Below are positions 31,525 through 64,000 of a stretch of 64,000 bases of DNA, in pieces. Under the pieces are notes generated by a model, which saw nothing but the letters and a program-made list of their open reading frames with translations, searched no databases and had not been told where the DNA came from. A program made the position numbers and the translations under genes. Every line of letters begins with the position of its first letter. Within the stretch, counting starts at the first letter, position 1. The DNA is from Tubiluchus corallicola (taxonomy: Eukaryota; Animalia; Priapulida): positions 124,001-188,000 of the forward strand of contig JAQGDQ010002379.1 in the NCBI GenBank assembly GCA_030141605.1. The letters are read 5' to 3'.

Positions 31525-33174
31525 TTGATTGAATGATTGAATATCTTTATTGACATAAACATATGATAATAACGATGTAATAATTCATGTGTTAATTAAT
31601 ACTGTAAAATGTTATTAAAGCTGTTTCCAGCCCACTTGGGCTTACAAGTCAATTTCATGAAAATTTATCACATAATAACTGTGCAGTTCATTTACATAGA
31701 ATATCAAATAAAAGAATATATATAATATGGAATTTTAACATATACCTGAATGGACAAGTCATGTATTAAATATATATCTTGCTTTGCCTCATTCTAAAAA
31801 TCTTATAAGCATATTTTGCAGTCCTAAGGACATTCTCTTCTGACATAATATATTTCCATTTATTTACATTATCTAATTGTTCCGGGTCCATGTTAATATC
31901 TTGGAAAAATTCTTCTCTCTCTAGTCTATAATGTGTACAAACAAACATAAAGTGAGATTCATCTTCTACATCTCCACAGCAACATATCTTACACAAACGT
32001 TCACCAACCTTAACATTTCTAAACCTACCATGCTCCAGTTCCAGGGGAAGAGTACCACTTCTTAGCTTTGCAAGCACAGACCTGTATTTTCCTTGCATAT
32101 TAATATAAACATATGGTTCTACTCCAAAGCTGTTCTTATACAATATATATGTTCTAAGTTTAGGGTAATCTGCATTTTTTGCTTTCCAATCAACACATTG
32201 TTTCTCATACAGCTGTGCCCATGCTCTGCTAAGAGGTACAGTATCCATATTAACAAAAGCTTGCTGGAACCCTGCTTCCTCTAGGACTTTAGAAATTTCA
32301 TATGACCAACCAACGTTGGTATTACAGTCCCAAAGAAATATTCTCTTAACAAGTCTAGAATTATCAAGTGTTAAAAGACGATTCCAATACCTTATCATAG
32401 ATGACTTTCTTCTAACTGAAGATGGTGACCATCCCATATCACCCTGTATACATTGATTAGCAGCAAAATTATGAACACCAAGAAATATTCTTAATGCCTT
32501 ATTCTGGACAGTATCAATTTTAGGGTACTTGTTATATCCCCATACTTCTGAACCATAATCAAGTATAGGACATACACCTGCATTGAATAACTTAGTAAAA
32601 GAATAATAACCCAGCCCATTTAACTTTTTATATTTACCAATCAAGGCATCCAGTGCTCTACTGCCTGAGTCTGCCAGTACTAGTGCTGTAACCTTATAAT
32701 CTAAATGTTCATTAAGATAAATCCCCAGATACTTATACCTATCTACAGTGCTCAAAATCTGATCACTAAGTTTAAATAGTACATCAGTTTGATTCACTTG
32801 GGGTTTTCTGAAATGGACAACATTTGACTTTTTACTGTTAAATTTGATTCTCCATTTCTTTCCCCACTCAGTGATCTTATCTAACATTTTCTGAAGATCT
32901 TCTTCAGATTCTGCTAAAATTACAACGTCATCAGCATACATTAAAATACAAATCTTATCATTACCAACAGGAATACCAATATTTAGGGACTTTACATCAT
33001 CTGCCATATCATTTATATACCAGCTGAACAGGGTTGGTGACAAAGTGTCTCCCTGCCTGACACCATATTCACATTTAAATTTATCAGTGAGGATACCATT
33101 TAGATTCACAGCACTATAGGTATCTGAAAGAATATTCTTAATGCTGCTATACATTTTGCCATCCACTATTACAT
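31525..33174 (-). mobile_element. 5'-truncated non-LTR retrotransposon (LINE, RTEX/CR1-group-like); RT ORF 33166-31766
   Basis: Uninterrupted 466-aa ORF with GVRQGDTLSPTLF, YADD, YKYLG and a C-terminal CxxC...EDESHF...C knuckle. The 3' UTR has AATAAA and a (TCAA/TTCA)-like tail near 31525-31545. Confidence 0.92.
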
Positions 33175-33836
33175 GTTAGTAATAAAATAATTTGTTCGTA
33201 ATTTGTCTGTATTAAAGGAATAGCTGGTATTCAACATAGGGCAGATCCAGACTGCTACTTGTTGCAGAGCCAGAATTCAGACCACACCTGTTTGTCAAGG
33301 ATAAACCTGTGAGACGAGATAGTGAAAAAATACAGGTAAGTAATTCTACCTCTGCCTGCATAATCAGATGCACACCGTGGATGTCTCTACGACTTAACCA
33401 GACTAGGTCCCTCAACGACTTAGCGAGAGAAATAACCTGCGAATGGCGCATCATTTTACTAAATAGGTCGAGTTCTATGACTGCTTAACCATGGCTTCGC
33501 ATTATCTACGAAGCTCCATTTAACCATTATTATTGCCCTAAACATAGTCTGTTAATTTATTCATTATGATTCATAGAATCGGTTAGTAGATTATATTGAT
33601 ATTAAAGCATGTTTTTTGGTATCTGTGAGAAATTCACGAATCCCACTTCAAACTTTTCAAGCTAATGAACATAAATAAATCAAAGTTCTTGTAACGCGTT
33701 TTCATCATTGATGGTTGCACAAATCATGTTGATGTCAGATAGCAACACTTAACAAGTATGTCAGATAACTTAATTAATAAACATTTTCATTGTGGTAGTT
33801 CTGTAGATTGCTGATGCCGATAGCTTAGCCTTCAAG

Positions 33837-38031: not shown

Positions 38032-44206
<6,175 letters not shown>

Positions 44207-46627
44207 AATAACCCGTTTTTATCTTGATGAATAAACTGCGTTATAAAATTTGCAGCAGCTGAAGGTTATTGTACAAATATTGTTGTTAATAAGCGCAAGG
44301 AACTTTCTTGTTTGCACATCATTTGTCCCATTGTGGTAAAGCTTATTTCCATGTCTTCAATAAAATATATAGCGTCACCTTAGATATTGTCACGTGTGGG
44401 TTACGCCTTTTAACGACCGAAAAAAGCGTCAACAGTAGACATGTTAGCGTGCTGTACTTTCCACAAATGAGATCTTCAGGCAATTTAGAAGTTCCACATG
44501 AACGGGCGTTCAGGTTTTGTTCGCCAGCGTCCAAGTGGATTAAGCTTAACAATTTAACGTGGCTGGGAGGGTCGAGGGAGGCGAACACAAAACAACCTTA
44601 GCCTAGACACACGTAAAACTGGCCATCACGTTTTTAAATTATGGTAAACATGCAGAAATTGAAATCGTAGTTGTTTGAAAGCAGAATTTATTAATGAAGA
44701 TTCATTTGAGCTCATATATTTCCACTCGAATACCTAATTTTATGGGTCGCATGTAGCTATAAACTAATATCACCTTTCTGGCTAGTATTACATACTCGTA
44801 CTATTCTGAATTATTTTTATTTATTTATTTATTTATTTATTTAGTAAATGTAATTCCCTTTTAGGTAAGTTTAATAAATTACTTGAATTTTTAATTTTTG
44901 CTTTTCAGGCAGACAATGGGTTTTGTTGGATGACGTAGAATGTCAAAAAGGTCACTAAGCCTTCTTTCACGATTACGTTCTACGTCTTTTAATTTAGATT
45001 TACGTCTTTGCAACTAATACGAAAATATTTCTCACCAGCCGAATAATATTGATTGCAACAAGCTAAATCAGATTTTGACGAAACTAAGAATCAATTTTCG
45101 CCATCTTTAAAATGTAACAAATGAATACGTTTAATTGTCGCTGATTCACAATTGAATATATTGTGCAAAATAAAATTTATTACAGGAAAAACAGTGTTAA
45201 AACTAATATATTTTTTGTAGTTTGCCACACTAAAACGTAACATTGTGATACAAAATTAATAATTATGACTGGAATGAAAGAAGATGCGCCACGTGGTCTA
45301 TGTGAAGTGCAGAAATCACAACTTGGCATCGCAAAAATTCCAATCTTGCTTGTCATTGTCTTTACGGCTATTGTTCAATCGGAAAACTGTACTTCCTCCC
45401 AATGTTTCCTCTATTATCCACGTCAGGCACATGAACTTCACCACTGTCCTTTTTTGCTAAACACAAAAGAAACAAAATTATGTTTTATAAAACTTAAATT
45501 ATTATTTTTAAAAATTACACATTCCTGATACGCCATTTTCAAATTGCCAAAAATAATCTGTTAAACTAAATTTTGTTTTCTAAACTCTAGTTTGTAATAA
45601 TTAATGCAACAATAAGTGTTTTTGGAATGGCCGTAAAAGTTCCTTCTATAATCTATTCGTTCAATTTAATTGAAATTTATAAAAGTAGGCATTTGCGTTT
45701 TTGTGCTCGTCAGACATGCTTTTATAATATCATGCTGATTTTGAAAAAAATTGAATCCAAATTTTATTTTTGAAGAAAATTTGAATCCAAAAAGCAAATT
45801 TTACTTTTGCACAGGCTTCACCCACACTTTTGTGTAGCGCTTTTACTAAAACGTATTCTCGCGTTTAAAGTTGAAAAAACAAAAAAACTTAAAGCATTAA
45901 AACCAGAAAAAACGCATAAAAATTCTCTCTACCAACGATCGAACTATGGGCCTTCAGGTCAAAAACAAATAGTCTCATAACCGCATGATTGAGCTGTGAT
46001 ACAGTATCGGTTTTAAATCTTTTCAAATTTTCCTTCCTATCAAATTGTTAATTTGATTAGTGATAATTACTCTCTGTTATTTACATAGTTTTATCTTAGC
46101 TCTAATTACTTTTCAGTGCATGCAAGAAGGACATTAATTAGCACTGAATTGCGTTATTATTGCTACACAAAAATAAAAACATTCCCATACGAAACCTTCA
46201 ATTTTTTTCGAAACACTGAAGCTTGTTTCAGACATGTGACCTGGTGAACGTGCTACAAAAGTACCTGTAGAACACACCTATAATAAATAAAATAAATACG
46301 CACACGAGTTAGTTATTTAGCAACAGTCAAGAACCGTTAGTTAAAAAATAACGAGTTAATAACAACAATTTTTAACAATAAGTTAATAACACGAATTTTC
46401 CTATCTTTACTTAAGTAAATGTTTTTCTTACGTTTTAAAGGACAAGAAAAGGTGTACCTGAAGCAGGTTTCAGAAAAATCGCCTTAAAAAATTATATTAC
46501 TTTATAGCAATTTTATGCCTATATCTTACTCGCACTGAAAGTAATTTTGATTTGTTTTCATTTTAAATTTCCCGCAATACTATTCCGAAGTCGCCATTAC
46601 ATGACGTCATGCACCAAACGTAAATCA

Positions 46628-47606
46628 AGGGAAGAAAAGGCAATGTTAAATTATATCTCAAAAGACTTTCCGTGCAAATCTATATTACTTAGATTTTCGC
46701 TTACCTGCTAGAGAGATTTATGTAACTAGAAAAGAAAATTATTAATTATTTAAAATGTTTTCACCAATTGGTAAAATGTAGCTGACTCACCCTACAGGGT
46801 GCACCACTCACTAACAAAAAAACGTATTTTTAATCTTATTGACAAGACATAGTAATTTTAAATTTTATTTAGTTAGTGACTTGCGCGCTACGAATGCTCT
46901 GATTATTTTTTCAAACTTTACAAAATGTTATCTAAACTTGTTTCAAATGACCTGTCGTGAAAATGGCTGCGTCTAACGGTCATCGCGGGAGTTTAAATTT
47001 ACAGGTTTTATACAGCGTGACTGCCGATTGAAGTCCTGCATGCAAAAAGGCAGCATGTAAGCGAAACAAAATTTCAAAACGAATTTTTCAAGCTTTATGT
47101 TTATGAAGGGTTCTCTTGTGCTTTAAGCACCACACCGCTTGATTAAGTTCTTTCGGTAGACAATGTTTTGCAGCCTATACTGCCTTATTGCACACAGATG
47201 TTATATTAGCAATAATACTGTATAAAACATGTAAATTTAAACTCCCGCGATGACTGTTAGGCGCAGCCATTTTGACGGTAGATTGTTTGAAACAACTTTA
47301 GGTGACATTGTGTGAAGTTTGAAAAAACCATCAGAGAATTCGCAGCGCACTCTTCTGTTACTAAACAAAAGACTTAATTACTTTACATTACCAATAAAAT
47401 TAAAAATACGTTTTTGATAACTTAGTGGTGCATACTGGGCTGGTGAAACACTGACGATTTACCAGTTGGAGCAAACATTTTAAATTGCTAAAAAATTTCT
47501 TTTCTAGTTACATAAGTCCCTCAAGCAGGTAAGCGTATAGCTAAGTAATATAAGTTTGTGTGGAAAGTTTTTGTGAACATTCTTTAAAAATGTTTTTTCT
47601 TCCCCT
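46628..47606. repeat. Long imperfect inverted repeat (arms about 46628-47003 and 47230-47606); a third copy lies at about 51459-51810
   Basis: CATCGCGGGAGTTTAAATTTACA pairs with TGTAAATTTAAACTCCCGCGATG, and CGCTTACCTGCT...ATGTAACTAGAAAAGAAA pairs with TTTCTTTTCTAGTTACAT...AGCAGGTAAGCG. Confidence 0.8.
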
Positions 47607-48202
47607 TCAACATTTTTTGCTGTTTCAAGGAAATCAATGTGCACCACACGCTTAGCACACATGGAACTAATGGAAGGAATTCAGCCAAACGAGTCAAGAA
47701 CCAAACTTAGAGTCCTGGTTGCACCATTTGAAAACTAGGGCAGAGGCGGGCCAAACTGCTGGTGAAATTGAGGAAGCGCTTTTACATCTCCCTGGATATT
47801 CTGACATTTGGCACCGCTTCACTTAAACTTTCATAAATACTTTTTAAGAAAAAGCTTTCTTCCGATTAAAATTTTTCGTCTATAAATGGTAGTACTAAAC
47901 TAGTCATCTAGATAATTTAGTAAAAAAAGCAAGCGAAGGCAATTAGCTGATCGAGCGCCCGAAGTTAAGCAACAGCTGATCCTGAGCAGTAAATGAATGG
48001 ATAATCAATATGAAAATTGGTTCTGCGGCTTCTTCTGCTATATTTCCCCGGCTCTTTTCCCTGCTGAAGAGAGGTACAATCGCGTCCATCTTAGAGGGCT
48101 GTCTTCGATAATAAGCAAGATCCCGTCCAGTCACAACAATTTATAATAATCATTTGAACGCACGAAAGAATATTATATTAAAAAGTGTGAAAAATTTCAA
48201 AC

Positions 48203-48272
48203 CACCGCTAGGACTCGAACCTAGGACTTATGCTGTCCAGGCAGCTATACTAGCCGCTACACCACAAAGGCA
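48203..48272 (-). mobile_element. tRNA-derived SINE-like head or tRNA pseudogene (similar remnants near 22378, 26936, 42545, 48395 and 57820)
   Basis: The minus strand has an A-box-like TGGTGTAGCGG and a B-box GGTTCGAGTCC, but no intact cloverleaf. Confidence 0.45.
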
Positions 48273-49033
48273 CTTGACCTACTTGACGGCACGTATGCTA
48301 CTAGTTGTATATGAATGAGGAATTAAAGTCTACATTGTACCACATAGTACAAGATCAATTCTATGAACGCCCGAAAGCTGGTATAAATTATCCCTTCATC
48401 GGGATTCGAACTCATAACCTACAATCCGGGTTGCTAACCATTACGCCACAGAGAGATTTTTCAGAATAAAAAAAATACACTGGACGATGAAAAAGGTAAC
48501 TAGCAGGTTGACCTAATTAGCAAACGCCAAAAGACAAGATATTAGACAGGTTTCCATCATTTGTAAAAAATGTGGCACATGTTTTTCCTTCCATACAGGT
48601 GCTGCCAATGAAATTAGTATTCATCAGTTTGTTAGATTTGAGTGCACGCATGCGCAAGTCAACTCAAAAATAAATGTAAAGACAAGCATAATAATTAGTA
48701 AGTTACGGAGGTAACCTTAGTCATCAGAATACCGACCAACCAAAAGCTGTACTGCCTGTAGATTTTTGCATCAGTAGATTTAGTATAATAAATGCATATT
48801 ATGTTAAAAGTAATTTTTAATTTTTTTGTGCGTATGCGTTGAGAAGTTATATTTTGTAATTGAATTTTAATTTTACCTATGTAAATTTTATGTCTTTTAT
48901 TCACAATTTAAAAAATTAACTCTTGTAATAGTAGTTTAACACTATTGCCTACAACAGGCATTGAGTGGTTACACATATAGTATTTTCACGTATTTTATCA
49001 CACCTGTAAATGTGTAGAACTTATGCAATAAAG

Positions 49034-49083
<50 letters not shown>

Positions 49084-49175
49084 CACTGCTGTGATGGCAG
49101 TGCTAATCGTGCAAAGTTAACAGCGCAGTTCACAGCGGGTATTGCTCTCCTCAATTTTTCCCTAGTTCTTATGCA

Positions 49176-51069
49176 TTAAATAACAGCATATTTTAAGACT
49201 AACAATACCTGAGTGCTATTGGTTAATCTGCCATTGTAGTATTTAGTGTTCCTGTCGTGTGGATATCGCAATTCGCCGCAGCAGCTCCTGCTTTTCAGGA
49301 CAGCAATGAAACCCAACCGGAACTTCCGGTTCAGAAATCCGTACAGGACCGGATCAATCCCACTATTCGACGTGGATATCCATTGGCATATGGGTATGAG
49401 CAGTGCCAGCTGCGCATTGTTATCGGAGACAACTCCAAAATAAACAAACGCAAACGTCAAGTACAGTGGCAGCCAACTGAAGGCGAACACCATCACAACG
49501 ACTAGGACCATTTTTGCAAGTTTGAGCTTCTGTTTTCGAACCAGCGTTTCCAAGTCACGTGTTTCACCAATCACGGGACGTCGTAAGACGTGCAGAAATA
49601 TCAAGAAATAGCAAACACTTATGACAGCTAAGGGAACAATGTAGCACTGCAAAGCTACAACGCACAAGAAGTACCATTTTGCTGCAGCGGGATCGTGCCA
49701 TCCGAATTCGCCACAAACTGACAGTAATTGACCCTTGAATATTATATCTACGGCATCGTAATACAGCAACCAAGGAATGAAGGTCAGGCAGGAATATATC
49801 CATATAACAGCAATGAATCGTCCCGCTGCCTTCGTCGTCATCTCATACTTCATCGGATAAACAATAGAAATGTATCTGGAAATATAAATCTCATTATTTT
49901 TGCAATACAATAATTGCCAACAGGTGTCTCTAGTGAGAAATCCTTTTCAAGACCAGGGCCGGATTTTAATTTTGTAGGCCCCTGGGTTACAGATACATGA
50001 GGCTCCGGCCCCAGTGACAATTAAAAAAAGCGTGAATGTTGGATTCTTCAAATCAGCTTATTCAAATTCTACAAAATAATGCCAACATTAGGCCCACGTA
50101 GATGGGTGAAAGTTTAACACAACAAAAAGAGAAGAAATATTCTGATATTTACAAAATTAAAACATGGAATACATACGAATTACAATAAATTGTAATTTTG
50201 TCACAGGAGGTGACCTCAATTCCTCTAAAATTGTGTCATTGTAATCAGATTGCTAGTGTATTTGGCAGTATCAATGAGTTCAAATAATGAACAAGAAAAC
50301 AATTTCAGTGTATTATTACACAGTATATTAATGCATTCTCTAGCAACTTTTCACAGTAATTTACTTTCACTTAATTTCTGGAGGCCCCTCAACTGGCAAA
50401 GGCCCCTGGGCTGCAGCCCATAAAGCCCATGCTCTAGTAACTTTTCACAGTAATTTACTTTCAGAATCTCTGGAGGCCCCTCAACTGGCAAAGGCCCCTG
50501 GGATGCAGCCCATAAAGCCCATGCTCTAGTAACTTTTCACAGTAATTTACTTTCACTTAATTTCTGAAGGCCCCTCAGCTGGCGAAGGCCGCTGGGCTGC
50601 AGCCCATCTGGTACTGTTAAAGACAATTAATGAGTTTTGAGAACTCAGCTGATTCACGGCTGTTTCAACTAGAAAATGCTCACTAAGCAGCATTAGGTTT
50701 TATACTGTACTGTGTTATACTAGCTTTAAAAATCTTTGCATGTTTGTTAGAGATTTCGTCGTCTTTAATATAACATCAATAATTGATTCATTAAACCACC
50801 ATGCATCGTCTCCCAAAAGACAGTCACCAAACTAATTTTCTTACTTATTTAATCGTTGGTAAAGAGCAAACATGACTGACTTATTCCTTATTCATTATAT
50901 TAAACACTTACTGATTAATAAGACCAGATTTCAAAAGCAAGCCTCCCTTGCTCGTGTGTATTTGCTTACCTCTCTACAGATATGGTAGCCAGTGTGTTCA
51001 CGGAAGAGGAAACGGAAACAGCTTGAAGCCAGACAACTGTTTTGCACGCCCCATCCGAGAACGGATAAC
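49176..51069 (-). CDS. Rhodopsin-class neuropeptide GPCR, SIFamide/NPFF receptor-like, distal TM3-TM7 cassette; exons 51069-50970 and 49875-49176 (or donor at 49209 to a short last exon 48755-48717)
   Basis: YPFSDGACKTVVWLQAVSVSSSVNTLATISVER|YISIVYPMK..., TM6 FAFSWLPLY, TM7 QWISTSNSGIDPVLY and the tail KFRLGFIAVLKSRSCCGELRY, which resembles the SIFamide receptor tail as I recall it. No TM1-2 exon found. Confidence 0.88.
49953..50612. mobile_element. MITE-like element (CAGGGCCGGATT end) in the GPCR intron, with three tandem copies of a 90-95 bp unit at 50340-50610
   Basis: The unit ...TTTTCACAGTAATTTACTTTCA...GGAGGCCCCTCAACTGGCAAAGGCCCCTGGG...GCAGCCCAT occurs three times. A related terminus CAGGACCGGATT lies near 43691. 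Confidence 0.5.
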
Positions 51070-51458
51070 CTTTAAAAGAAAGCTTGTGCTAGCAAACTAG
51101 AGTTTAGATCTATTACTGTATTAGTAAGGTACTAATTATATCTTTTATTTATCATTACTAATTGTTTTGTCTGTATTCAGGTTTTGTGGTTTTCTGCCGA
51201 GGAAAGCGCCAGTGATGCAAAGACGACAGATATATTTTATTCAAATTTGAAAGTAGCTAATGCAAGAAAACACTTTTCATAACAAAAGTTTAAAAAATCG
51301 TCTTGAAATTTTATATCACTTACATGCTGATTGTAAATTAAAGTACAAGAGAACACTCTTCATAAATAAAGCTTAAACATCGTCTTGAAAGGTCATATTG
51401 CTTACATACTGTCTTATTGCATACAGGGCTTACGTTAACAGTAGCGCTGTATAGAGCT

Positions 51459-51810
51459 CGTAAATTTAAACTCCCGCGTTAGGCGCAGTCATTGTAATGT
51501 CAGTCGTTTGAAACAAATTTAGATAACATCGCATAAAGTTCGAAAAAATAATCAGAGCATTTGTAACACGCTCCTCGCTAACTAAGCAAAAGTATAAATT
51601 GCTTTACATTATCAATAAGATTAAAAATACGTTTTTGGTGAATCAGTGGTGCACGCTGGGATGGTGATGCAGTGCCATTCCACTAGTTGTCGCGAGCATT
51701 TAAAATTATTAAGAAATTTCTTGTCTAGTTACATTTGTTTTTCAAACAGATAAGAATGATGCATACAGAAGTAATGTAACTTCATATCATGGAAAGTTCC
51801 TAGAGACATA
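51459..51810. repeat. Third copy of the 46.6-47.6 kb repeat arm, same orientation as 47230-47606
   Basis: GTAAATTTAAACTCCCGCG...TTTGAAACAA...ATCAGAG...TTAAAAATACGTTTTTG...GTGGTGCA...CTAGTTACAT. Confidence 0.75.
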
Positions 51811-52599
51811 CTGTACTTTAAAAACCGTTTTGATTCTCGTTAAAAAATTTATTATGAGGTTTTCGGTGACCGCATTGGTAATTTTATTTCATGATATGAT
51901 ATGATGTGATTAACATGGTAATGTTATAGCAAAGAATGTTTTTTACTATAATGTTTACGAACTGTATTCTGTACAATAATAATTTGCTAATAAAACACGC
52001 TTCATTTCGTCAGTCACAAAACAGTTCAGGTCGTGGCATCATCCTGAATTCTGTTTGTCAGCTAAATCGATCTAGATTCGCCCTGCGTTATGACTTTCAC
52101 TTAACGCTACACAAATAATTTACATATTTCATTATTGTTGTGACTAACCGACTGACTCAATACTATCTGAGGTTAATACAGCGCCCTTTTCGCCTAGAAA
52201 TATACTGTTTTTTATTTTGTATTAATTTGCATTTAATAATGGATAAAGTTACGATGATTTTATGCATGAGATGAGTTTTCTTACTGCAGTTACAAATGTT
52301 TGCGGCCTAAAATGTTTCACTGTTTACCTGTGTTTGTCCTGCACCTCCTATTAACACCGTGTATTATTTGAAATTAATTAAGATTGAACAAAAGATGGCG
52401 CTTCTATCAAAGAATTGAAACTTGAGTAGTTTTGTTACGTTAACGCCAGTGACGCACTACAAGTCCTTTTTTGTAACTTTTGTCAGCAAACAATGATGAA
52501 TTAAGAAAGAATAAATGGCTTCCCATTCTTTGGGGCAAAAATCTTGTGCATATGTCATAGATAAGAAAAAAATTAAATGTTCAAGCAGAAAGTCAGTCT

Positions 52600-53030
52600 G
52601 TGTCACCAGAAAATCATCGACTCTGCCAATCGGTTAGTAGATCAGCTAACCATCTACTTTTCAACCTGGTAATCGATGAACTGATCTCGAAAGTCGGTTC
52701 TCGATTTGGCTATGGGATCGACGAATACCAAGTGGCTATAGTTGGTTTTACCGATGACCTAGTCCTAATCTCAGCCTCGAAACATGGCATGGGAGTTTTG
52801 TTGGAGACAGCCAATGGCTTCTTCACGAAACGAGGTATGACACTGAACGCCAACAAGTGCAAAGCCATGAAGCTAGTCAAGGCATACCAGCGAAAGGCTA
52901 TGAAAGTGTTAATAGAGCACACATGGAAGATCTGCCAGACTCCTATTCCAATGCTGGGAGTCAGTGATACGTATAAATACCTGAGAATCCCCATGACTGC
53001 CAACCTGTCTAGTCAACCAGCTGAGCAAAT
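52600..53030 (+). mobile_element. Reverse transcriptase fragment (R2/NeSL-like non-LTR element)
   Basis: LLFNLVIDEL...VGFTDDLVL...GMTLNANKC...YKYL RT motifs. Truncated on both sides. Confidence 0.75.
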
Positions 53031-54910
53031 TTATTTATCAGAGAGTCCAAAGATATACCATTTGTGCTGGTGCAGCATGTAACCACTAGCGTGTGTAAAA
53101 TTTAGAAAATCACGCTTAACTTCTGAGAAAACAAAACAATAATAACAGATATGAGATTAATACTGTTTCACTTTTATATTTCACAAATATGAACTTTCAC
53201 TTCATAAACAATGACGTCAGGATTCGCCAGTTAAAATAATCCAATCCAGAAAAATGTGACACATTAATGATAAAACAGTATAGATCTTAAATGTACCACA
53301 AAAATACTGGTACTTATGTAAGTGATTTCTAGTGATGTTGACTTTTCAGCAGTATCAGTCCTGCGTGACTTATAAATGAACAGTCAATCGCAAGGTACAA
53401 TTATACGAGCTGTCATAGAAGAAATAAACTGGGGAAATAAACCTGTTAAGCAGTAACTATGACATCAGCTACCGTTCTGTCGGTTTCTCCAATCATTGGC
53501 ACCTAGTAAGAAAACTACGTCTCTAGGAATGGCAACTTAACTTTATGATGCGTCCTTAAATGTCAATACCTTATTTTAAACTAAGTGTAAAGAAAGTGTA
53601 TCAAAAAATGATGACACTATTTGCAGCAAGATAGAAAACCAAAAATGGCAGACGGTAATAACTTTATAATTTTATAACTTTATAACCTAATTTTATAATA
53701 TCAGCAGTCAATTGACCAAGATACTCATAATGACGAAAGTTTAGTTCATACTTGATTTAATACTTTTTGCAAGCTATATTATTACTGTCTTGTGTAGGAT
53801 CTAACTACAATGATACAGAGCCATGTAGTAATGGTTTTTAATTCATTTGTTGCCAATTCCAAAACCAAGTACAACATCCGGACAAACTGCAGAGCTGATT
53901 CAGTCAAAAGAAGCTGGAAAGTATTGCAACTTTAGAATAGAGAATGCACATGAAATATTTCTTACTATCTCATGGTCACATCCCGTAGAGCAGACTAAAA
54001 ATTATATCGTTAAGCATAATCAATGAAAAACAGTGACAACATATGATACCACTAACATCAACATAGACCTAAATCAGACAGTGAGGGCAACTCAAAAAAT
54101 ACACTGGTCTTGAAAATATAATTTTTCAGATTGCTTCAAACTCCATTGTGATTTATATCTTCCCTGATACCTGATAACTTAATAACAACATTCAAATATT
54201 GCACAAAGGTAACATCACATTATATTAGATAGTGTAATATAACAGGCAGCTACAACATCGTAAAGATTGCTCATACTGCCAAGTGTTAACTAAACAGGCT
54301 ACTAAACAAGCCTGCTCAATCCATCAGTTCATTTATTACAAGTACACTTCTATATTCCATACTCATTACACTAATGTGTACAATCATTTTCATTGTCAAC
54401 TAACTTCAACCTAGGCAAGATCAGAAGACAATATTTGGTCACATGCTTGTCGCTACAAAATTTTCCAATCGTGAAGACAATAGCACAAGTTTCATTTGCT
54501 TTAAAATTGGTGCAATAACATCTTTGAACTTGTGAATGTAATATAGCGTGTTTTATACAAATAGTCTGTGATTCACTTCATGACCAAGAGACCATCACAA
54601 AATTCGGCTCACATTCCAGTATCTGCAAATAGGATTATGACAAGTACACTATTTGGGAATAATTTAACAGATGTATTGGTAATCTTGGAAACTAGTCACC
54701 ATTCGAGTTACAAAGCGAACACATCACACTTAGCCCGCACATTGTGCAGAAAAACGTTCTCTTGTAAATTTCTCTTCTGTTATTGTTGCTGGTAACAAAA
54801 AAGCAGCTCCGTCACATGTAAGAAAAGTACCAAGTAGACGCCATCATGCACAACCATCAATGACACTAGCGACATGTGGAGCTGCTTTCAGAAACTCCTC
54901 TTCATTTTCT

Positions 54911-56040
54911 TCACACATCGTCTTTCAAAGTCGCCATACAGTAATCTACATGGGTCTGTTCAGAAACGATCCTCTGACTATTTACTGCAGATGTGGTATA
55001 GTGTCCTATCCTGTCTCCAGGATACTTCAGCTTCTTACAACAAGACCCACTCATCACTATGGCTTTGAACCCTTGCCTGTATTTTCGGTTTAAGTAGGCA
55101 TAGATGCACGGATTAATACAACTATTTGCAGTGGAAACCCACTGAAGGACGGGAACAGCGTGATTGACGTAACTTAGTGCCACGTCATCAAAACTGTTGA
55201 AGTAATAGCCGATGAAGATGGCGTACAAAGGTAGCCAAGAAATGGCGAAAATCAAGACTACCACCAGAAGCATTTTGATGACTTGGATCCGTTGGCGACG
55301 GACAATATTCTCATACTCTCGAGCATCGCCGATTAAATCTCTTTTCCACACAGCCAAGAAAATGTTCATGTAACAAAAACTGATTGTTAAAAGTGGGGCA
55401 ACATAGCAGAGGATGAAGACATTGAACAACAAATTCCACTTCATCGCGTGTTCGTACCCGTTCGGCCATTGTTCCATGCAGTAGCGTATGATTACTTGGC
55501 GATCTGCTGACGGATTATCAGTTATTTGGAAAAAAGCAAACCATGGAATAAAAAACGCCCCGGCGCAAATCCAGATGGCAGCACAAGCTTTTCTAGCTGT
55601 CCTCAATGTCATCTGAAATTTCATTGGGTGGCAAATGGCAAAGTATCTGGAAAAATAACAATAAAGACAAAGTTATATGAAACTTGTTGGCTGATTGGAG
55701 TTGAACATATGTCAGATATAGCGGGGTTTTAACAAAACGGAGACAGGCTAGGAAATAGATAGAAGGTAACTACAGTTAGCAAACACTGACTAAACTGAAA
55801 AAGTTAACAAAAAATGTCTGACCATTAAGTTGGATGTTGCTGATGACTTCATTCAATAAAACTATTTTCAATCCTGTAAGACGGCAACTTACTTTGCAAG
55901 ACTACATTTACAAATGTCAGTGCCACTTTTGCAGGCTTACCTATCAAGAGAAATTGCCACCAAAGTATACACAGATGTCGCCACCGACAAACCCTGAAGC
56001 CATGACACCAACTTGCATGGTATCATGCCGAACTGATAAC
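54911..56040 (-). CDS. Rhodopsin-class neuropeptide GPCR, SIFamide/NPFF receptor-like, proximal TM3-TM7 cassette; exons 56040-55941 and 55646-54911
   Basis: YQFGMIPCKLVSWLQGLSVATSVYTLVAISLDR|YFAICHPMKFQMT..., VIKMLLVVVLIFAISWLPLY, QWVSTANSCINPCIY, KYRQGFKAIVMSGSCCKKLKY. 5' exon(s) not seen in the window. Confidence 0.9.
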
Positions 56041-57979
56041 CTATAATACAAAACACTCATGTTATAATAATAAACTAACAAAAATATCATTATGCATAAA
56101 ACGATTATGCATAATTATACATAAATTATAACACTACATCAGCATAATTAATGTTAAACAATGCTAAACAATGTTAAACCCACAATAATTAATTAGCTAT
56201 TGTCGTTGCTTATAGTTTTTGATCACATCAGTCAGTTAGGCACCTTCACAATAATTAATGTGTTTTAAAAAAATGTAAAACAAAAAGCAATTGTCACAAT
56301 GCGATGTAATGTAAAATTTATTTTAGTCGTAATTATAAGCACTGGGCAACTACATTACGACTGTAACAGTCAGTTACACAATAATAAGGCTTTCACAGTT
56401 TCGTTGTGCGCACGCGCAGTTGTTGTAGGTCGTAGGTTAAGTGTACCACAGCAACCCGTCGTATCTACAATCGTCACGTGACATGTGGGTAAAGTAAAGC
56501 CCAGTTCAGTAACGTCAGTGTTTTCGTGGACTTCACTTAACTGTGCAATAGTCTGTGCGGGATCTTGTTTGGGAACAAGAGAAAATGAATTAGAATTAAT
56601 TACTAATCCAATAGCATGGACTGCGAGGTGTGGTCAAGTGAACACAAATGCGTTGTCTGGTACATTTAACCTTTGACCTTTCCACGATCATCATCAATCG
56701 CTGGAACTGCGAAAAGGCTTATTAACTGACTGTACAAGCTACTGCTATTACTATAGCTAATGCTGCTATAACTGCTACATTACCATTGCTATATAATAAA
56801 CTAATTATATTAATTAATTAGCATAATTTAATTATTAGCAGTTTTCTGTATTAGTAATTATACCAATTAATCAGACCAACACTAGCAGTTAATTATCAGT
56901 ATTATAATAATTCTCAATTGTTAAAACCTAATAACACTTATTATTATTATAAGGCATAATAATTCCGTTTTGTGCAATACAACACACAATTTAACAATTG
57001 CAGACTTATCATCATCAAGTTTACAAAAATCATGGCATGTAAATTCCCTGCTCACAAATAAAAAATTAAACACAGTTAATCATGCTTTTGTGTTTAAATT
57101 AATTGTATTTGCGGGCGCTTAGAACTGCAAGAATGTGTTGGTGACATGCAGTCCACTGCACCTACATGCAGTTTACATGCAGACACGTGACATGCATGCG
57201 ATAGTTGTTCTGAAACGCATAATAATTAATATGACGTTGAACGTTGGAGGTCTGTTTAATTTCTCGCAGCTTCAAAATGAAGCCATTAATTAGGTCGTCA
57301 TTGCAGCACGATAAGTGCTCGGTTCAGCTAGAGATAATGACTTATCTTCATTATGTTAGTACGATGTGACGAAAATTACGTGTTTATTAAGCGAAAAACC
57401 ATCACGCATACCGTAGATGTCAAAACCAGAAGTGCCCATTCTGAGAAAAGTAGGAAAAAATTATGGCAAATAATCATTTGCGGATGTCGTAGTAGCCAGT
57501 TAGTAAATGAATCAGCTACACATAGTGATGATAACTGTTTATTTGGTATAATACAAAATGTAAAGGCATAACAACTCTTTTTGCAGTAGAACTTGAGTAA
57601 ACACTTTTGTATCCAACTTATACCTGATGTAAAAACTATACAACTGATTATGTTATAAAGTCACAATGATTGTATGTTAATGCATGCCCAGTTGGTTAAT
57701 GGAATAAGTAGCATAAATATGAACAATTCTGACAATTTCTCAGTCAAAAAAGCTTTTGTCGTTTTAACTTTAACACTCATAGCTAGTTTATTGGACAACA
57801 AGCGTATTTTCTGTTGGGAGGTTGCGGGTTCGATACTACGGTGGGGTAATACAAACACTTTTTACGTGGCACCTGCCTGGGTGGATTAACGATTCTGTAA
57901 TGTAGCTGTAGTTGTTATTTACAGCCGCTGATAAACGCCTAGTGTTGTCTATTGAGTTTAAAACCATCTTTAAATAAAG

Positions 57980-58062
<83 letters not shown>

Positions 58063-58099
58063 TATTACTATTATTATTACTATTATTATTATTATTATA

Positions 58100-58172
<73 letters not shown>
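57980..58172. repeat. (TTA)n microsatellite
   Basis: Direct reading. Confidence 0.95.
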
Positions 58173-58173
<1 letters not shown>

Positions 58174-61029
58174 AAGAAAAGCAAGGCCCTCTAGGAAGTT
58201 GGGCTTATTTCAAAAATGTTAGAAAGATTTAGTAATAAAATTGCTATAAGTGCTTCGTGTAATTAGTAAAATCTCCTTAAAATCGCGATCATTTCACGGT
58301 TGGGCGCTGCTATTTTTAAGGCCTGTTCTTCCCCTAATGACATCGTTCATCAAAAGCAGCCCACTCTTATTTGCCGTCAAAACTGTAAGTTTTCATAAAA
58401 AATTATACAGCTAATTTTTTGATATTTTTGTTCGAACATTAGGTATGCTGCAGAAGCTTGAATTAGTTTATGCAGCGCGTGCTTACGGAAACTTACGATG
58501 CGCTTACGAAAAGTCACGAAGTCCACCAGTTACGCCACAATTTCAAGTGAACGGTGGCAACCACCGCGCCGGAAAATTTCAAATAAAGCGAAAGTAAAAA
58601 TTAACTTTATGCTTTATAGACAATTTTTGCAATTTTACTTCTTATATTTTTCTACATTTAGGTGATAGCAGTAAAATAAACCCAACATGCTAAGTGACTT
58701 GTCATTTCTTTAAAGAAAATAAGCCTAAAGGTAAAGACGAATGATGAAATATGCTTAGCTTTAGCAGGCAGCAACTTTCTTACACAAACTGTCACTAATA
58801 ACATGTATTGTTATGGTCACAGCAGCCCCGAGCATTTCCTTTATTCGAGATTTAGTAAACTTCAGCGTTTCTTACGTCTGTTGAAAAGTGCAGATCGAAA
58901 TCCATTACGCTTGTTTGATGCTTCAGCGGTGTGCCTTTTCTAATTCACTTATCAGTCTGAAGCAGCGGAAATAAATTATGAGGAAAAGTTTACGCGGTGT
59001 GACGACACAATTACAGAGTGAGTCCACAGAATGGTGATGCTGCGGTCAGTGATTCCCAGTCGTCCAAATATTTTTCTTGAAACAACCGGTGATTTTCACT
59101 GAGTTGGTTGTTCTGAGATGAGGGAAGCAGAACAGCCGAGTGGCCACGGCGTGTACTTCGCGAGCAAGGCTAAGCCACGCCAGGCAGATGAATCAATCAC
59201 TTGTGACCGCTTGTGTTCCATACTCTCTCTTGGCGGTTTCATTGGCCATACGAACTGTGGATGTTTACGTTCGAAGACTAGACGATTTGAGTGCAGTGAG
59301 ATGCAGCCCCAGCCGATTCAGTCCAACCTCATCCTAGCAGGTTAACTTCGTAATGAGTCACAAGGTGCAGAACGGTATAAAAAATAAAATACTCTTGGTA
59401 AAATGGCAAAAGGCAAGAAGGTCTCAGCTGGCTTTGAACCAGGTGTCTTCAGGTACACAGGTACTGTTCTTGCTGTCATCGCGTAATTTTCGTTGATTTA
59501 AAAGTGAACTCGGTAGAACTGAGAAACTTTGGCCCACCTTACAGTGAGGAGCATTCCTTGGGGCATTCCTCATGGAACACATTGTTTTTTATGGCGCATT
59601 TCATACAGACGTCTCATGTGGAAATCAGATAAAAAAGTTTGGGATTCGTGAAAACAGTACGGATAGCAATCGCAGCACGAGTGGACCATTTGTGTGGCAA
59701 GTTAACCCCGTAGTTTAAGAAAAAACGAAACCAAAACCAGGTTTTGTTTAATTTTCTGCATTCTGAGTAAAACGTTCAAATTTTTGATTTTTACAAAAAC
59801 ATTGGCCTATGAACGTTTTAAACTGAATTCACTTTTTTTAGGAATGGTAGCCTATTTAAAAATGTACAACATAAATATTATTTTTGCCTAAAAGAAACGT
59901 CAATATGTGTACTTAGTTATACTTATAAAGCTTTTTCATAATATATTTACTTTTAGTCTAAGTATCATGATGTAGCCAACATTGTTACAATTGTGTTTTT
60001 GAAAGCGTCATTTTCCTTGCGTCCTCAGTGTGAAGTGGGCCTTAGGAATTTATGTTCACCACGATCAGTGTTCTATTTTTTCGTTTTTGTAGTTGTTGCT
60101 ATGGTCACGTTGTTGTCGTCATTGTCATCATCATCGTCATCGTCATCGGAGCCTTTCAGACGTTTAGACACTACAGAAAGCAACATCATTTATGGTGCTC
60201 TCAAACTACACATATTGGTAAAGGGGTAAAGTTGCACAGTTCACATCATGCCGAGATATTTTTGGTTTGAACTTGTCGTAAGTCGATAGATTGACGAACA
60301 AGAACGAAGACAACTCCTATAGAAAGCGAATACAGCCGCCAGCGGCAATCTAGGATAAATATCCCCTTGGAATCACTTAAGCGAGCGCCGAAGTAACGCG
60401 CTCAGTAATATTTATTTTGGGCAATACATTTTAGCTTGTAATTAGCTGTTTCAAAAATGCCATCTGCAATCGTAATATAAGATAATACTGTAATTAAAAA
60501 TGTAACATACGTATTTTGTGGAATACGTATACATTAGTGCTGGATCCTGCATGCAATAGCCGCTGCTACAAAGTATGAGAAGCATTTTCATGCACTAATT
60601 TAAAAATGTGGTAAAGGCATGCTTATTATTCGTAATATATAATGCAGTGCCAGTGCTATACATGTATAAATAACAACCAAACGTACCCATTGCAGCAGAA
60701 AGCGGTAACTTGCAGACGGTGTACAACCATAATCTCATTGTCCAGGTAAAATAAAAAAAATCTGGAGCCATCCACAAACGCACGTCGAACAGCAATAAAA
60801 ACCGAGGGTAGAAAAAAGGAATGCAAACCAAAGCAATAGAAAGCACATAAGCACGAAACAGGTGCGAGCCACAACATCTAGATTAAAATGCGAAAAATTG
60901 TAGCATGTTCTGAAAAACTTGTAGGGGCTTTGTGACAGATATTTAACTATGGTGCAGGCTGTGTGTTTTTGCACCATCACAATTTTAAAAAGATGTAAAA
61001 TAACCACATTTTAAAGTATATCACACTTA

Positions 61030-61155
61030 ATACGCAGGATACAAACGGAGGTGTACCACAAGGATCCACTGTAGGACAACTGCTTTTTCTTAGCTACATC
61101 AATGATCTCTTTCTTATTACTGATTTCAGTACATATCTTTTTGCTGATGACAGAC
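61030..61155 (+). mobile_element. Short CR1-like RT remnant
   Basis: Translates to GVPQGSTVGQLLFLSYINDL...YLFADD. Confidence 0.7.
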
Positions 61156-64000
61156 CCCTTAATCAAATCCATCCACTAATTCATTTCAGTTCCAACATCA
61201 CAATAACAGAGAGCTAACTGGATAGAAGCATACAAATTATCAGCTAATTACACCAAAATTAAATATATGATACTAATAAGCAGCAAAGGATGTCTCTATT
61301 GGTGATCGCAAGATGTAAGGCATTCGCAGTACGGAGCACAAAAATAATTGGGAACAGATGCCCCTGTACGGTAAGTAGGTGTTTGTCAGGTGATGGATTG
61401 ACTTCAAAGCCTTAAATACAGTCAGTTAACTTACGATCTTATACAACTTACGTGCCCTCTTGGCTGGTTGCTCGTTGTAACTAAATTATCACTAAGCCCC
61501 CGGTTCATTTGTTCATGCTATGTTTCAGTTTATTGCTTTCTTGCCTGCTTTATAAAACCTATGCGAGCGAATGCAGTAATAAGAAGCAAAAAAATTTGCG
61601 TTTTGCCAAAAATAGCTGAACTAGCAGTGCTGAGCTATATGTAATAGCTTTTTATAGTAGCTATTTAAAACGCAAAATTCGCCCACATAAATGGGTCACT
61701 GCAAAATTTTATACAAGGTGTCTAAAAAGTCAGTTTTGTAATTTTCGTGTAATTTAAGCAGGATTTCAAGTTTCTAAAAGTAGCAATAAATTACTCAGGA
61801 TCTTCGTTGGCTTCAAGCTACAACCAAAGAGCGTGGACAAAAGAAGCTCGATTCTAAATTCAGCAAGATTGGTGGATACTGTTTGACAGAAAACTGAATT
61901 ACCTGAAGAAAATTAAATTGCGTGAGGAATGGTAACGAAATCAAGTCTCTTCATACGCCAGAAATTATTGTGAAACGAAAATTTTCCAATAAAAATCAAG
62001 ACGAGTTGATTCCACGACAGAATGGTATTTGGTCAATATTAGCTTTTTGTTGAACTGAGCTGTTTTGTTTTGCTTAAGTTATGCTGTTTAACATAAACAG
62101 GCTTTTCCACTGTTTTTTGGTACTCCAAAAATTTATAGCAACAATAGCTATTGTGATGACTTGCAATAGCTATTATACTAAAACTAACGCTTTATACACC
62201 GTGTATGCATAGCTATAATGAAACCTAAAGGTAAGAATAACAGGGTAGTAATCATTGCGCACATCAAAGTCATCCATAAAAGAAAGACCTATTATAACGT
62301 AGGTCAGAAAAGTATTGTACACATACTTAAAAGTGCAATAGAAGTAATCTTGGCAGGTTATACTGAAAGGTGCTAATAGTTATTATTATAAAATACTATT
62401 AAATGATATTTTATAATATCATATATATATAATATAATATCGTCTTTGTTTGTTATTGTTTAGGTCATTAATTAAGTCTTGTCCATGTTGAGCTTAGCTC
62501 ATAAGTTAATTTCTTCTACTACGCTCATAGCACTGCAATGCAATGTTAATTTGTAATTGTATAACTTTTGTATTGTGCTAAATTGATGAATAAATTAATC
62601 TAAATCTAAATATGTTTTATAAACGTACAGGTTAACCAACTAAAGTAGGTCCCCACTGGAGAGTGCTACGACACTCGTAGATTATTTCTACTAATGCCAT
62701 CATGCATCAGGGATTTGTAAATTTAAATTTACAGTTTGCTGTAAAAATATAGTCAACCATTGGGACAATGAGCAACTGAGCTGTATATACTTCTAGGCAC
62801 GTGTAAGTGAAATAAACTGGGAACCATTAAAGTTTTTGCTCCTCTGTGTGTGTGTGTGTACTGTAGACAAGCATAGAAATAGAATTATCATTTTTGTGAA
62901 GCTCAGACGCTTCTGATGCAGATCTCATTTGAATTCAGAGACGTGACCGTATTTTGCAAAACAAAAAAAAACTAGCTGAAGAGTCGATACGTCGCTTAAC
63001 CAAACGTCCACAAAGCAGTCAGTTGTCAATACTCGTCGGTTGTAGTCACACTGTAAGTTCCAATATATACTAAAATTATCATCGTCGTCGTCGTCGTCGC
63101 CATCGTTGTCATCACCACCATCATAATCAATATTCACTACCATGTGGCACCGCAACTAACACAAACATCAACGCCAACAACACTATCATTGCCACTAACG
63201 CCCCATGACCTTATTCAGCCACCATTTTTAATTTTGCTGTTTAAATTTTTAACACCAACGGCAGCTAGAATGTCAGCTGCATTCAGTACGATTTACTACA
63301 CGATGTTCACAATATTATAACGCTTTGTTTCACTCTCCTTTCATCAACCCTACACCTGGAGTTTAATACTTTCATCTGAACGCACTGATTATTTTAAATT
63401 ACCACACTTGTGTAAAAGATCACGTTTCTGTGACAGACTTGATTGTATGGTAAAGCGAGCGAGTCATCGTTTAATCATGACACCTGAGGCATGGCAGTGA
63501 TTAAAAGAATTGTCAGTAGTAGAACTAAAAATCATAATAAAGGTCATTCTCACAGAAGCACAATGGGGAAAATAATTATACTGCAAGTCTGTAATTTGAG
63601 TGAAAGTCAGATTCAAATGTAAAGATGAATGATCATTGTTATCTATGTATAGTATTAAATGTTGACTTCATGGTTGTTGATGTTGGCACAGCAGTTGCTG
63701 CTGCTGCTGCTGCTGCTGCTGCCCTACTTTTGCTGCTCCTGTTCCTGTTGTTTTTTGCTGTTACTGCCGTTGTTGCTGTTGCTGTAATATTCTGGAATTT
63801 GTGATTAAGTACGAACGTATTGCCAATGTCTAACTCGCTTTTGTACTAGAAATATTCAATCTGGGTGATGTACCAGACAGGCTGATGAAGTAGCTGTTAT
63901 TGTTGGTGTTGCTGTTGTTTCTAAAATTCTATTTCAACTGCCTTTTTATAAATTTTGACGTCATTTTATGTCACAGTTTTCTGAAATTCTGTCCCTATAA

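What the first reader, a model, noticed from the sequence alone, without database searches (positions are those of the whole stretch)
49176..56040. One gene, two receptors? Tandem alternative TM3-TM7 cassettes of a SIFamide/NPFF-type GPCR with no private TM1-TM2 exon
Seen: two intact, clearly diverged cassettes with the same architecture. Each has a 100-nt phase-1 exon starting AG|GTTAT (ECL1-TM3, ending in the D/ER|Y motif) and then a large TM4-TM7 exon. Between them (51070-54910) I find only repeats, an RT fragment and UTR-like sequence, with no GNxxV/TNxFIxNLAxAD exon, and none is evident from 56041 to 64000 either. Inference: a shared N-terminal/TM1-TM2 exon beyond the window splices to either cassette, with alternative polyadenylation, giving two receptors that differ over most of the ligand pocket and all G-protein loops after ICL1. 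Known precedent: insect ETH receptor A/B mutually exclusive 3' exons. I do not know of this arrangement for SIFamide-type receptors.
Basis: partly seen in the sequence, partly recalled or inferred. Interest (0 to 1): 0.85.

Follow-up and report, generated by a model that had tools for sequence, protein, structure and literature searches.

The report
SIFamide-type receptor, two swappable back halves
A neuropeptide-receptor locus, likely from a priapulid worm or a close relative, carries two intact, long-diverged copies of the exons for helices 3-7 but no exon for helices 1-2 between them, so it likely splices one distant front exon onto either copy and would make two different receptors from one gene.

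Summary
On the minus strand lie two open TM3-TM7 cassettes: A (56040-55941 + 55646-54911) and B (51069-50970 + 49875-49176). They are 46% identical in protein, with saturated silent sites. No TM1-TM2 exon lies between them or up to 64000: the best minus-strand HMM hit has E=19, while a 21-residue control scores 4e-5. B's 100-nt exon has no start codon, so B needs an upstream coding exon.

Both cassettes fall in the protostome SIFamide/NPFF-type receptor clade and outside the arthropod SIFaR1/2 pair. They form a group whose only named member is from Priapulus caudatus.

New here: abalone RefSeq isoforms show the mirror design. Two or three different TM1-TM2 fronts join one identical TM3-TM7 body at the same ECL1 junction.

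Best reading (0.65): one gene with a shared distant front exon and alternative terminal cassettes, like insect ETHR-A/B but swapping five helices. No transcript junction could be obtained, so the splicing is inferred. Several front exons, a recently orphaned B, or an assembly loss remain possible. Verdict: new variant of a known kind; interest 0.5.

The parts
55941..56040 (-). Cassette A, exon A1 (100 nt, phase 1 in, phase 2 out): ECL1-TM3 to D-R|
54911..55646 (-). Cassette A, exon A2 coding part: end of TM3, ICL2, TM4-TM7 (NPCIY), helix 8, tail, stop; intron A1-A2 is 294 nt
54332..54337 (-). First AATAAA after the A stop; candidate proximal poly(A) signal, untested (10 AATAAA/ATTAAA hexamers lie in 51070-54910)
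52561..53082 (+). Reverse transcriptase fragment (LINE-like) between the cassettes, opposite strand
51338..51754 (.). Partial copy of a high-copy inverted-repeat element also present at 46629-47604
50970..51069 (-). Cassette B, exon B1 (100 nt, same phases as A1): ECL1-TM3 to E-R|; no Met; in-frame stop 7 codons upstream in the intron
49176..49875 (-). Cassette B, exon B2 coding part: end of TM3 to tail, DPVLY in TM7, stop; intron B1-B2 is 1094 nt
48896..48901 (-). First AATAAA after the B stop; candidate distal poly(A) signal, untested
56041..64000 (-). At least 8 kb of presumed intron upstream of A1 with no TM1-TM2 coding exon; the front exon is inferred to lie beyond the window

Best explanation
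The locus holds two intact TM3-TM7 cassettes of a SIFamide/NPFF-type receptor with no TM1-TM2 exon between them, and is likely one gene whose distant front exon would be spliced to either cassette to give two receptors. Inferred origin: an old partial tandem duplication that began inside the long intron after the TM1-TM2 exon. Inferred mechanism: the front exon's phase-1 donor pairs with the A1 acceptor (56040) and the RNA is cleaved after A's stop. Or the RNA reads through A's poly(A) site, skips A1 and A2, and joins the B1 acceptor (51069). The two products would share the N-terminus, TM1, ICL1 and TM2, and differ in TM3-TM7, ECL2/3, ICL2/3 and the tail. They are predicted to differ in peptide potency, G-protein coupling or cell type, as ETHR-A/B do. 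The splice phases also allow a third in-frame product, A1 joined to B2. A1 joined to B1 shifts the frame, so the two small exons exclude each other.
For: Shown: (1) Two open cassettes with identical phases. (2) 46% amino-acid identity over 233 aligned codons with saturated silent sites: pS 0.83, 8 of 37 four-fold sites identical, pN 0.38. Both keep 11 of 11 class-A motifs checked. (3) No TM1-TM2 exon in 51070-54910 or 56041-64000, with working controls, and 0 ATG-started exons of 40 or more codons ending in a phase-1 donor in either interval. (4) B1 has no Met and the first Met of B is residue 41, after ERY, yet B's TM3 is conserved, so it must be read from an upstream exon. (5) The 100-nt exon is an old unit of this family: exactly 100 nt with the same phases in 5 of 5 unrelated loci checked. 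(6) Abalone RefSeq isoforms join different TM1-TM2 fronts to one body at the same G|W junction: H. cracherodii X1/X2 fronts 42 of 91 identical to the other type, bodies 263 of 263; H. asinina X1/X2 fronts 53 of 89, bodies 297 of 297. The two modules are therefore annotated as exchangeable at this intron. (7) Precedent: Bombyx ETHR-A/B (PMC8175484, passages).
Against: The shared exon itself was not seen, and no junction was seen. Of 151 proteins with a usable front, none formed a convincing pair with the same front and a different back (2 weak pairs: one across species, one apparently an internally deleted form). The only Priapulus caudatus protein found (XP_014677779.1) is a single model without an isoform label. 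An open frame does not exclude recent loss of function: 885 of 2000 simulated copies stay open at 2% neutral change and 302 of 2000 at 5%. B has D in place of N in NPxxY where P0039, P0041, P0048 and P0054 keep N. Acceptor pyrimidine tracts of A1 and B2 are unremarkable (287 of 605 background AGs as rich).
Confidence: 0.65

Rival explanations
1. Two or more TM1-TM2 front exons lie upstream of the window, as in abalone. A and B are then served by different fronts (interleaved genes) or by all of them (a front-by-back combinatorial locus).
For: Abalone genes of this family are annotated with 2-3 alternative fronts at the same junction. Nothing in the window shows how many fronts lie beyond 64000.
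Against: It needs a second duplication. No protein set examined shows both multiple fronts and multiple backs in one gene.
Confidence: 0.18
2. B was a complete tandem paralogue that recently lost its promoter and front exon, and is now an untranslated remnant that has not yet decayed.
For: Mobile-element pieces lie between the cassettes. The frame survives small neutral divergence fairly often. B has the DPxxY change.
Against: No trace of a TM1-TM2 exon in the 3.8 kb gap. A's own front intron is over 8 kb. Both B splice sites and all motifs are intact. B's branch is only slightly longer than A's (0.83-0.88 against 0.69-0.72).
Confidence: 0.1
3. Assembly artefact: a stretch holding B's own front exon was dropped between 51070 and 54910.
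For: High-copy repeats lie in the gap. No listed contig piece spans the whole gap.
Against: The window has 0 N. Run X1, probably DNA, has depth in 30 of 30 bins; it may be the source sample, so it is not independent.
Confidence: 0.07

Closest known systems
Arthropod ecdysis-triggering hormone receptor ETHR-A / ETHR-B (PMC8175484, 12 passages read)
   Same: One class-A neuropeptide receptor gene with common 5' exons and two tandem, homologous, mutually exclusive 3' modules, each carrying its own stop. In Bombyx the isoforms differ in ligand sensitivity and in the neurons that express them.
   Different: ETHR switches at the end of TM4 (about 60% of the protein, one exon per module). Here the switch would be at ECL1, five helices, with two exons per module. 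The family differs (SIFamide/NPFF-type). ETHR splicing is shown by experiment; here it is inferred.
Arthropod SIFamide receptors 1 and 2 (bioRxiv 10.1101/2020.09.17.302331, 11 passages; PMC4237046, 12 passages)
   Same: Closest named sequences: 36-46% identity among the best hits. Two receptor variants per species.
   Different: They are described as two genes. In my trees they form their own clade without A or B (97/98; 94/95), so the A/B split is a separate duplication.
Haliotis SIFamide-receptor-like RefSeq isoforms (XP_048248397.1, XP_046352960.1, XP_046352961.1; XP_071107175.1/176.1; XP_067671930.1/931.1)
   Same: Same family and same ECL1 junction used as the switch point.
   Different: Mirror image: alternative fronts on one body. 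These are database models; I did not check their RNA support.
Priapulus caudatus XP_014677779.1 ('neuropeptide FF receptor 1-like', P0048)
   Same: Only named member of the six-row clade that holds A and B (96/95). It carries part of TM2 in front of the TM3 segment.
   Different: Single, N-terminally short model; 41-46% identical to B and about 37-43% to A. Its gene layout could not be fetched.

Membership tests
Class A (rhodopsin-like) GPCR | 7tm_1 match above cut-off and core motifs (C3.25, D/ERY, W4.50, ECL2 Cys, P5.50, xWxP, N/DPxxY, helix 8) | tested here: met
   99 and 92 bits against a cut-off of 30.5; 11 of 11 motifs in each cassette (the position labels are recalled)
Class A (rhodopsin-like) GPCR | All seven helices encoded | tested here: inconclusive
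   TM1-TM2 are absent from the window; sequence beyond 64000 is not available
Protostome SIFamide (NPFF/GnIH-type) receptors | Groups with arthropod and lophotrochozoan SIFamide-receptor-like proteins, apart from NPFFR, RYamide, NPY and QRFP-type receptors | tested here: met
   31-row clade at 100/97 in a 38-row tree
Protostome SIFamide (NPFF/GnIH-type) receptors | Activation by SIFamide/FF-type peptide | not testable with these tools
   Needs a cell assay; ligand pairing of the family is from PMC4062910 (6 passages)
Arthropod SIFaR1 / SIFaR2 pair | A and B each orthologous to one arthropod paralogue | tested here: not met
   The arthropod clade excludes both
ETHR-type alternative 3' cassette gene | Tandem homologous 3' modules with matching splice phase, each with its own stop | tested here: met
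ETHR-type alternative 3' cassette gene | Distal module has no private front exon | tested here: met
ETHR-type alternative 3' cassette gene | Transcripts join one shared 5' exon to each module | tested here: inconclusive
   No RNA holder listed; no joint at 56040 or 51069 among the rows shown
ETHR-type alternative 3' cassette gene | Switch point at the end of TM4 | tested here: not met
   The switch is at ECL1, before TM3
ETHR-type alternative 3' cassette gene | Both modules conserved across species | tested here: inconclusive
   A pairs with unnamed P0039 (97/95; 94/94). B pairs with Priapulus P0048 + P0054 at 91/85 but is unresolved. A+B as sisters is not rejected (p-AU 0.073)

The most novel reading that the evidence does not exclude
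The ECL1 intron of protostome SIFamide/NPFF-type receptor genes is a standing hinge that splits the receptor into a two-helix front and a five-helix back. Abalone multiplies the fronts and this animal multiplies the backs. This locus may do both and add an A1-B2 hybrid, giving a small combinatorial set of peptide receptors from one gene.
Probability: 0.12. Interest if true: 0.8.

Novelty: new variant of a known kind. Interest (0 to 1): 0.5.

Why it matters
If confirmed, it extends the ETHR-A/B design to a second ancient neuropeptide family and, likely, to an early-branching moulting animal, with a larger swap (five of seven helices) at a different point. With the abalone isoforms it gives natural front/back exchanges at one junction. 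These make it directly testable how much TM1-TM2 and how much TM3-TM7 set peptide selectivity and coupling in the SIFamide/NPFF/GnIH family. It also warns that gene callers and receptor counts will miss or truncate such back halves. The design itself is known, which caps the interest.

Tried and rejected
Whole genome: none held, so sequence beyond 64000 could not be read.

RNA: no RNA holder listed (2 runs). Both runs were laid on 44100-64000 and X2 alone on 48600-56380 at 80%. Both are contigs. Of 10 X2 records laid, 8 were shown: 7 lie on the repeat near 51.3-51.7 kb and one (189 nt, 80 aligned, 6 differences) covers 54881-54960 across A's stop. X2 is only guessed to be RNA, so this is not used as evidence. 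No joint at an exon edge was shown; 210 joints were not displayed.

Metagenome scan: 54 loci, none with a high-identity match to A (best long segments 24-40%) and none with two tandem cassettes; most are short.

Shared-front/different-back protein pairs: none convincing among 151 proteins.

Third cassette in the window: none.

Truncated five-helix receptors from internal starts: possible for A (Met at residue 5 of A1), rejected for B (no Met before residue 41).

Recent partial duplication that was never functional: rejected, because silent sites are saturated while 46% of residues are kept. dS could not be computed because of saturation.

A/B equal to arthropod SIFaR1/2: rejected.

Trees: FastTree, 125 of 185 proteins plus A and B; 36 chosen proteins plus A and B; 16 plus A and B. 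Rows were picked by name and coverage.

No structure or complex prediction was run, since the front exon is not available.

Earlier-finding look-ups returned nothing.
Full report
1. Observation. On the minus strand there are two cassettes of the same build. Cassette A is a 100-nt exon (56040-55941), a 294-nt intron and a large exon (55646 to the stop at 54911). Cassette B is a 100-nt exon (51069-50970), a 1094-nt intron and a large exon (49875 to the stop at 49176). Both small exons start ag|GTTATC and end AG|gtaagc; both large exons start ccag|ATAC. Spliced, they give open frames of 277 and 265 residues running from ECL1 to the tail. Pfam 7tm_1 covers positions 52-260 of 260 in both. No third cassette is in the window.

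2. No front exon. A TM1-TM2 profile finds nothing in the six frames of the window: best E 0.33, on the wrong strand. A TM3-exon profile built the same way finds both small exons at E 6e-14 and 2e-12. A larger profile (69 segments) gives a best minus-strand hit above 51070 of E=19. It finds TM1-2 exons in 6 of 9 control loci; the other three (L008, L017, L052) showed no such exon either. It also finds a 21-residue TM2 piece of the Priapulus protein at E 4e-5. No ATG-started exon of 40 or more codons with a phase-1 donor lies in either interval. A very small or multiply split front exon cannot be fully excluded. B cannot start by itself: B1 has no Met, and its frame closes 7 codons upstream.

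3. Both cassettes were long under selection. Over 233 aligned codons they share 46% of residues and 52% of bases; pN is 0.38, pS is 0.83, and 8 of 37 four-fold sites are identical, which is chance level. Introns and flanks show no real similarity. Each keeps 11 of 11 motifs checked; B reads DPVLY in TM7. This rules out a young duplicate that never functioned. It does not rule out a recent loss of function, since 44% of simulated copies stay open at 2% neutral change and 15% at 5%.

4. Family and animal. The best named hits are SIFamide receptors of ticks, crustaceans, horseshoe crab and insects. Solved relatives are orexin and NPFF receptors. In a 38-row tree, A and B lie in the protostome SIFamide-type clade (100/97) and outside the arthropod SIFaR1+2 clade (97/98). 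In an 18-row tree they form a clade (96/95) with three unnamed proteins and Priapulus caudatus XP_014677779.1; that clade had only 79/78. The animal is therefore likely a priapulid or a near relative, which is an inference from one named member. A has its own unnamed partner, P0039 (97/95 and 94/94; 50% identity). B's grouping with the Priapulus protein is moderate (91/85) or unresolved, and a tree with A and B as sisters is not rejected (p-AU 0.073). So the split is old, but its age relative to Priapulus is open.

5. The junction is an old hinge. In 5 of 5 unrelated metagenome loci checked, the ECL1-TM3 exon is exactly 100 nt with the same phases. Cluster look-ups showed abalone RefSeq isoforms with alternative fronts on one body, switching exactly at this exon's start. 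H. rufescens X1, X2 and X3 print three different fronts before the same WQLG... start. H. cracherodii X1 and X2 have fronts 42 of 91 identical and bodies 263 of 263. A second gene in H. asinina has fronts 53 of 89 and bodies 297 of 297. One front type is 99 of 100 identical between two species. These are database models whose RNA support I did not see. An Owenia model marked 'partial' begins at the same exon start, on a contig of the same length as a full-length paralogue; this is a lead only.

6. How it most likely works. Shown: the anatomy, the constraint, the missing front, B's dependence on an upstream exon. Inferred: a duplication starting inside the long intron (over 8 kb here) copied only the back. 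The front exon's donor now chooses between the acceptors at 56040 and 51069, with cleavage after A's stop competing with read-through. AATAAA lies at 54337 and 48901, but such hexamers are common in this AT-rich DNA. From the phases, front-A1-A2, front-B1-B2 and front-A1-B2 are in frame, and A1-B1 is not. [quoted passage not shown] Confidence 0.65. Rivals: several fronts upstream 0.18, recently orphaned B 0.10, assembly loss 0.07.

7. What could not be shown. No genome is held, no RNA holder was listed, and the laid contigs showed no exon junction. The metagenome scan gave no close relative with long flanks.

8. Literature. Two SIFamide receptors per species are described as separate genes in cockroach and termite (bioRxiv 10.1101/2020.09.17.302331, 11 passages, with 0 occurrences of 'splic' or 'exon' in the main text; PMC4237046, 12 passages). 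The preprint's supplement of receptor sequences was not seen. SIFamides as ligands of protostome NPFF/GnIH-type receptors is from PMC4062910 (6 passages). I found no paper describing alternative back or front cassettes in SIFamide-type receptors in searches. I saw only their listings, and the library lacks most subscription journals. Earlier notes of this scan report similar two-cassette layouts in other neuropeptide receptors (unchecked), which suggests that the design recurs.

9. Verdict. The feature is real. It works like ETHR-A/B, if the splicing is confirmed, but is not an ETH receptor and switches two helices earlier. It is a new variant of a known kind, with interest 0.5. The bold case, a front-by-back combinatorial receptor locus, has probability 0.12 and would merit 0.8.

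Noticed in passing
P0015, P0308, P0310, P0307, P0312, P0071, P0188 (Haliotis RefSeq proteins): Two abalone SIFamide-receptor-like genes are each annotated with 2-3 alternative N-terminus/TM1-TM2 fronts on an identical TM3-TM7 body, switching at the ECL1 junction; no paper on this turned up in my searches.
   Followed up: partly
P0073 and P0079 (Owenia fusiformis, contigs of the same length, 38.9 Mb): One model is 'partial' and starts exactly at the TM3 exon; the other is full-length; bodies 136 of 249 identical. It may be a second case of a front-less back cassette.
   Followed up: no
window 11809-14400 (-): Wnt gene exons; the 11812-12162 piece is closest to Wnt8 among solved structures (E 1.5e-25 against 6e-21 for Wnt5a).
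   Followed up: partly
window 2860-3165 (+): Cytochrome P450 exon (Pfam p450, E 4.6e-23).
   Followed up: no
window 38032-38808 (-): 258-codon frame with two PPxY-like motifs and no Pfam match; weak Atlas likeness (0.84-0.85, lead only) to PRR7/TMEM51/LDLRAD4-type tails.
   Followed up: partly
window 31766-33175 (-): 469-codon LINE-like reverse transcriptase frame (RVT_1, E 4.4e-21).
   Followed up: no
window 46629-47604: About 1 kb imperfect inverted-repeat (fold-back/MITE-like) element, very high copy in run X1 (depth about 10,000 against about 5), with a partial copy at 51338-51754.
   Followed up: no
window 17586-18441: Perfect 428-nt tandem duplication (100% identity); recent duplication or assembly artefact.
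   Followed up: no
window 50334-50607: Three tandem copies of a unit of about 93 nt inside the B1-B2 intron.
   Followed up: no
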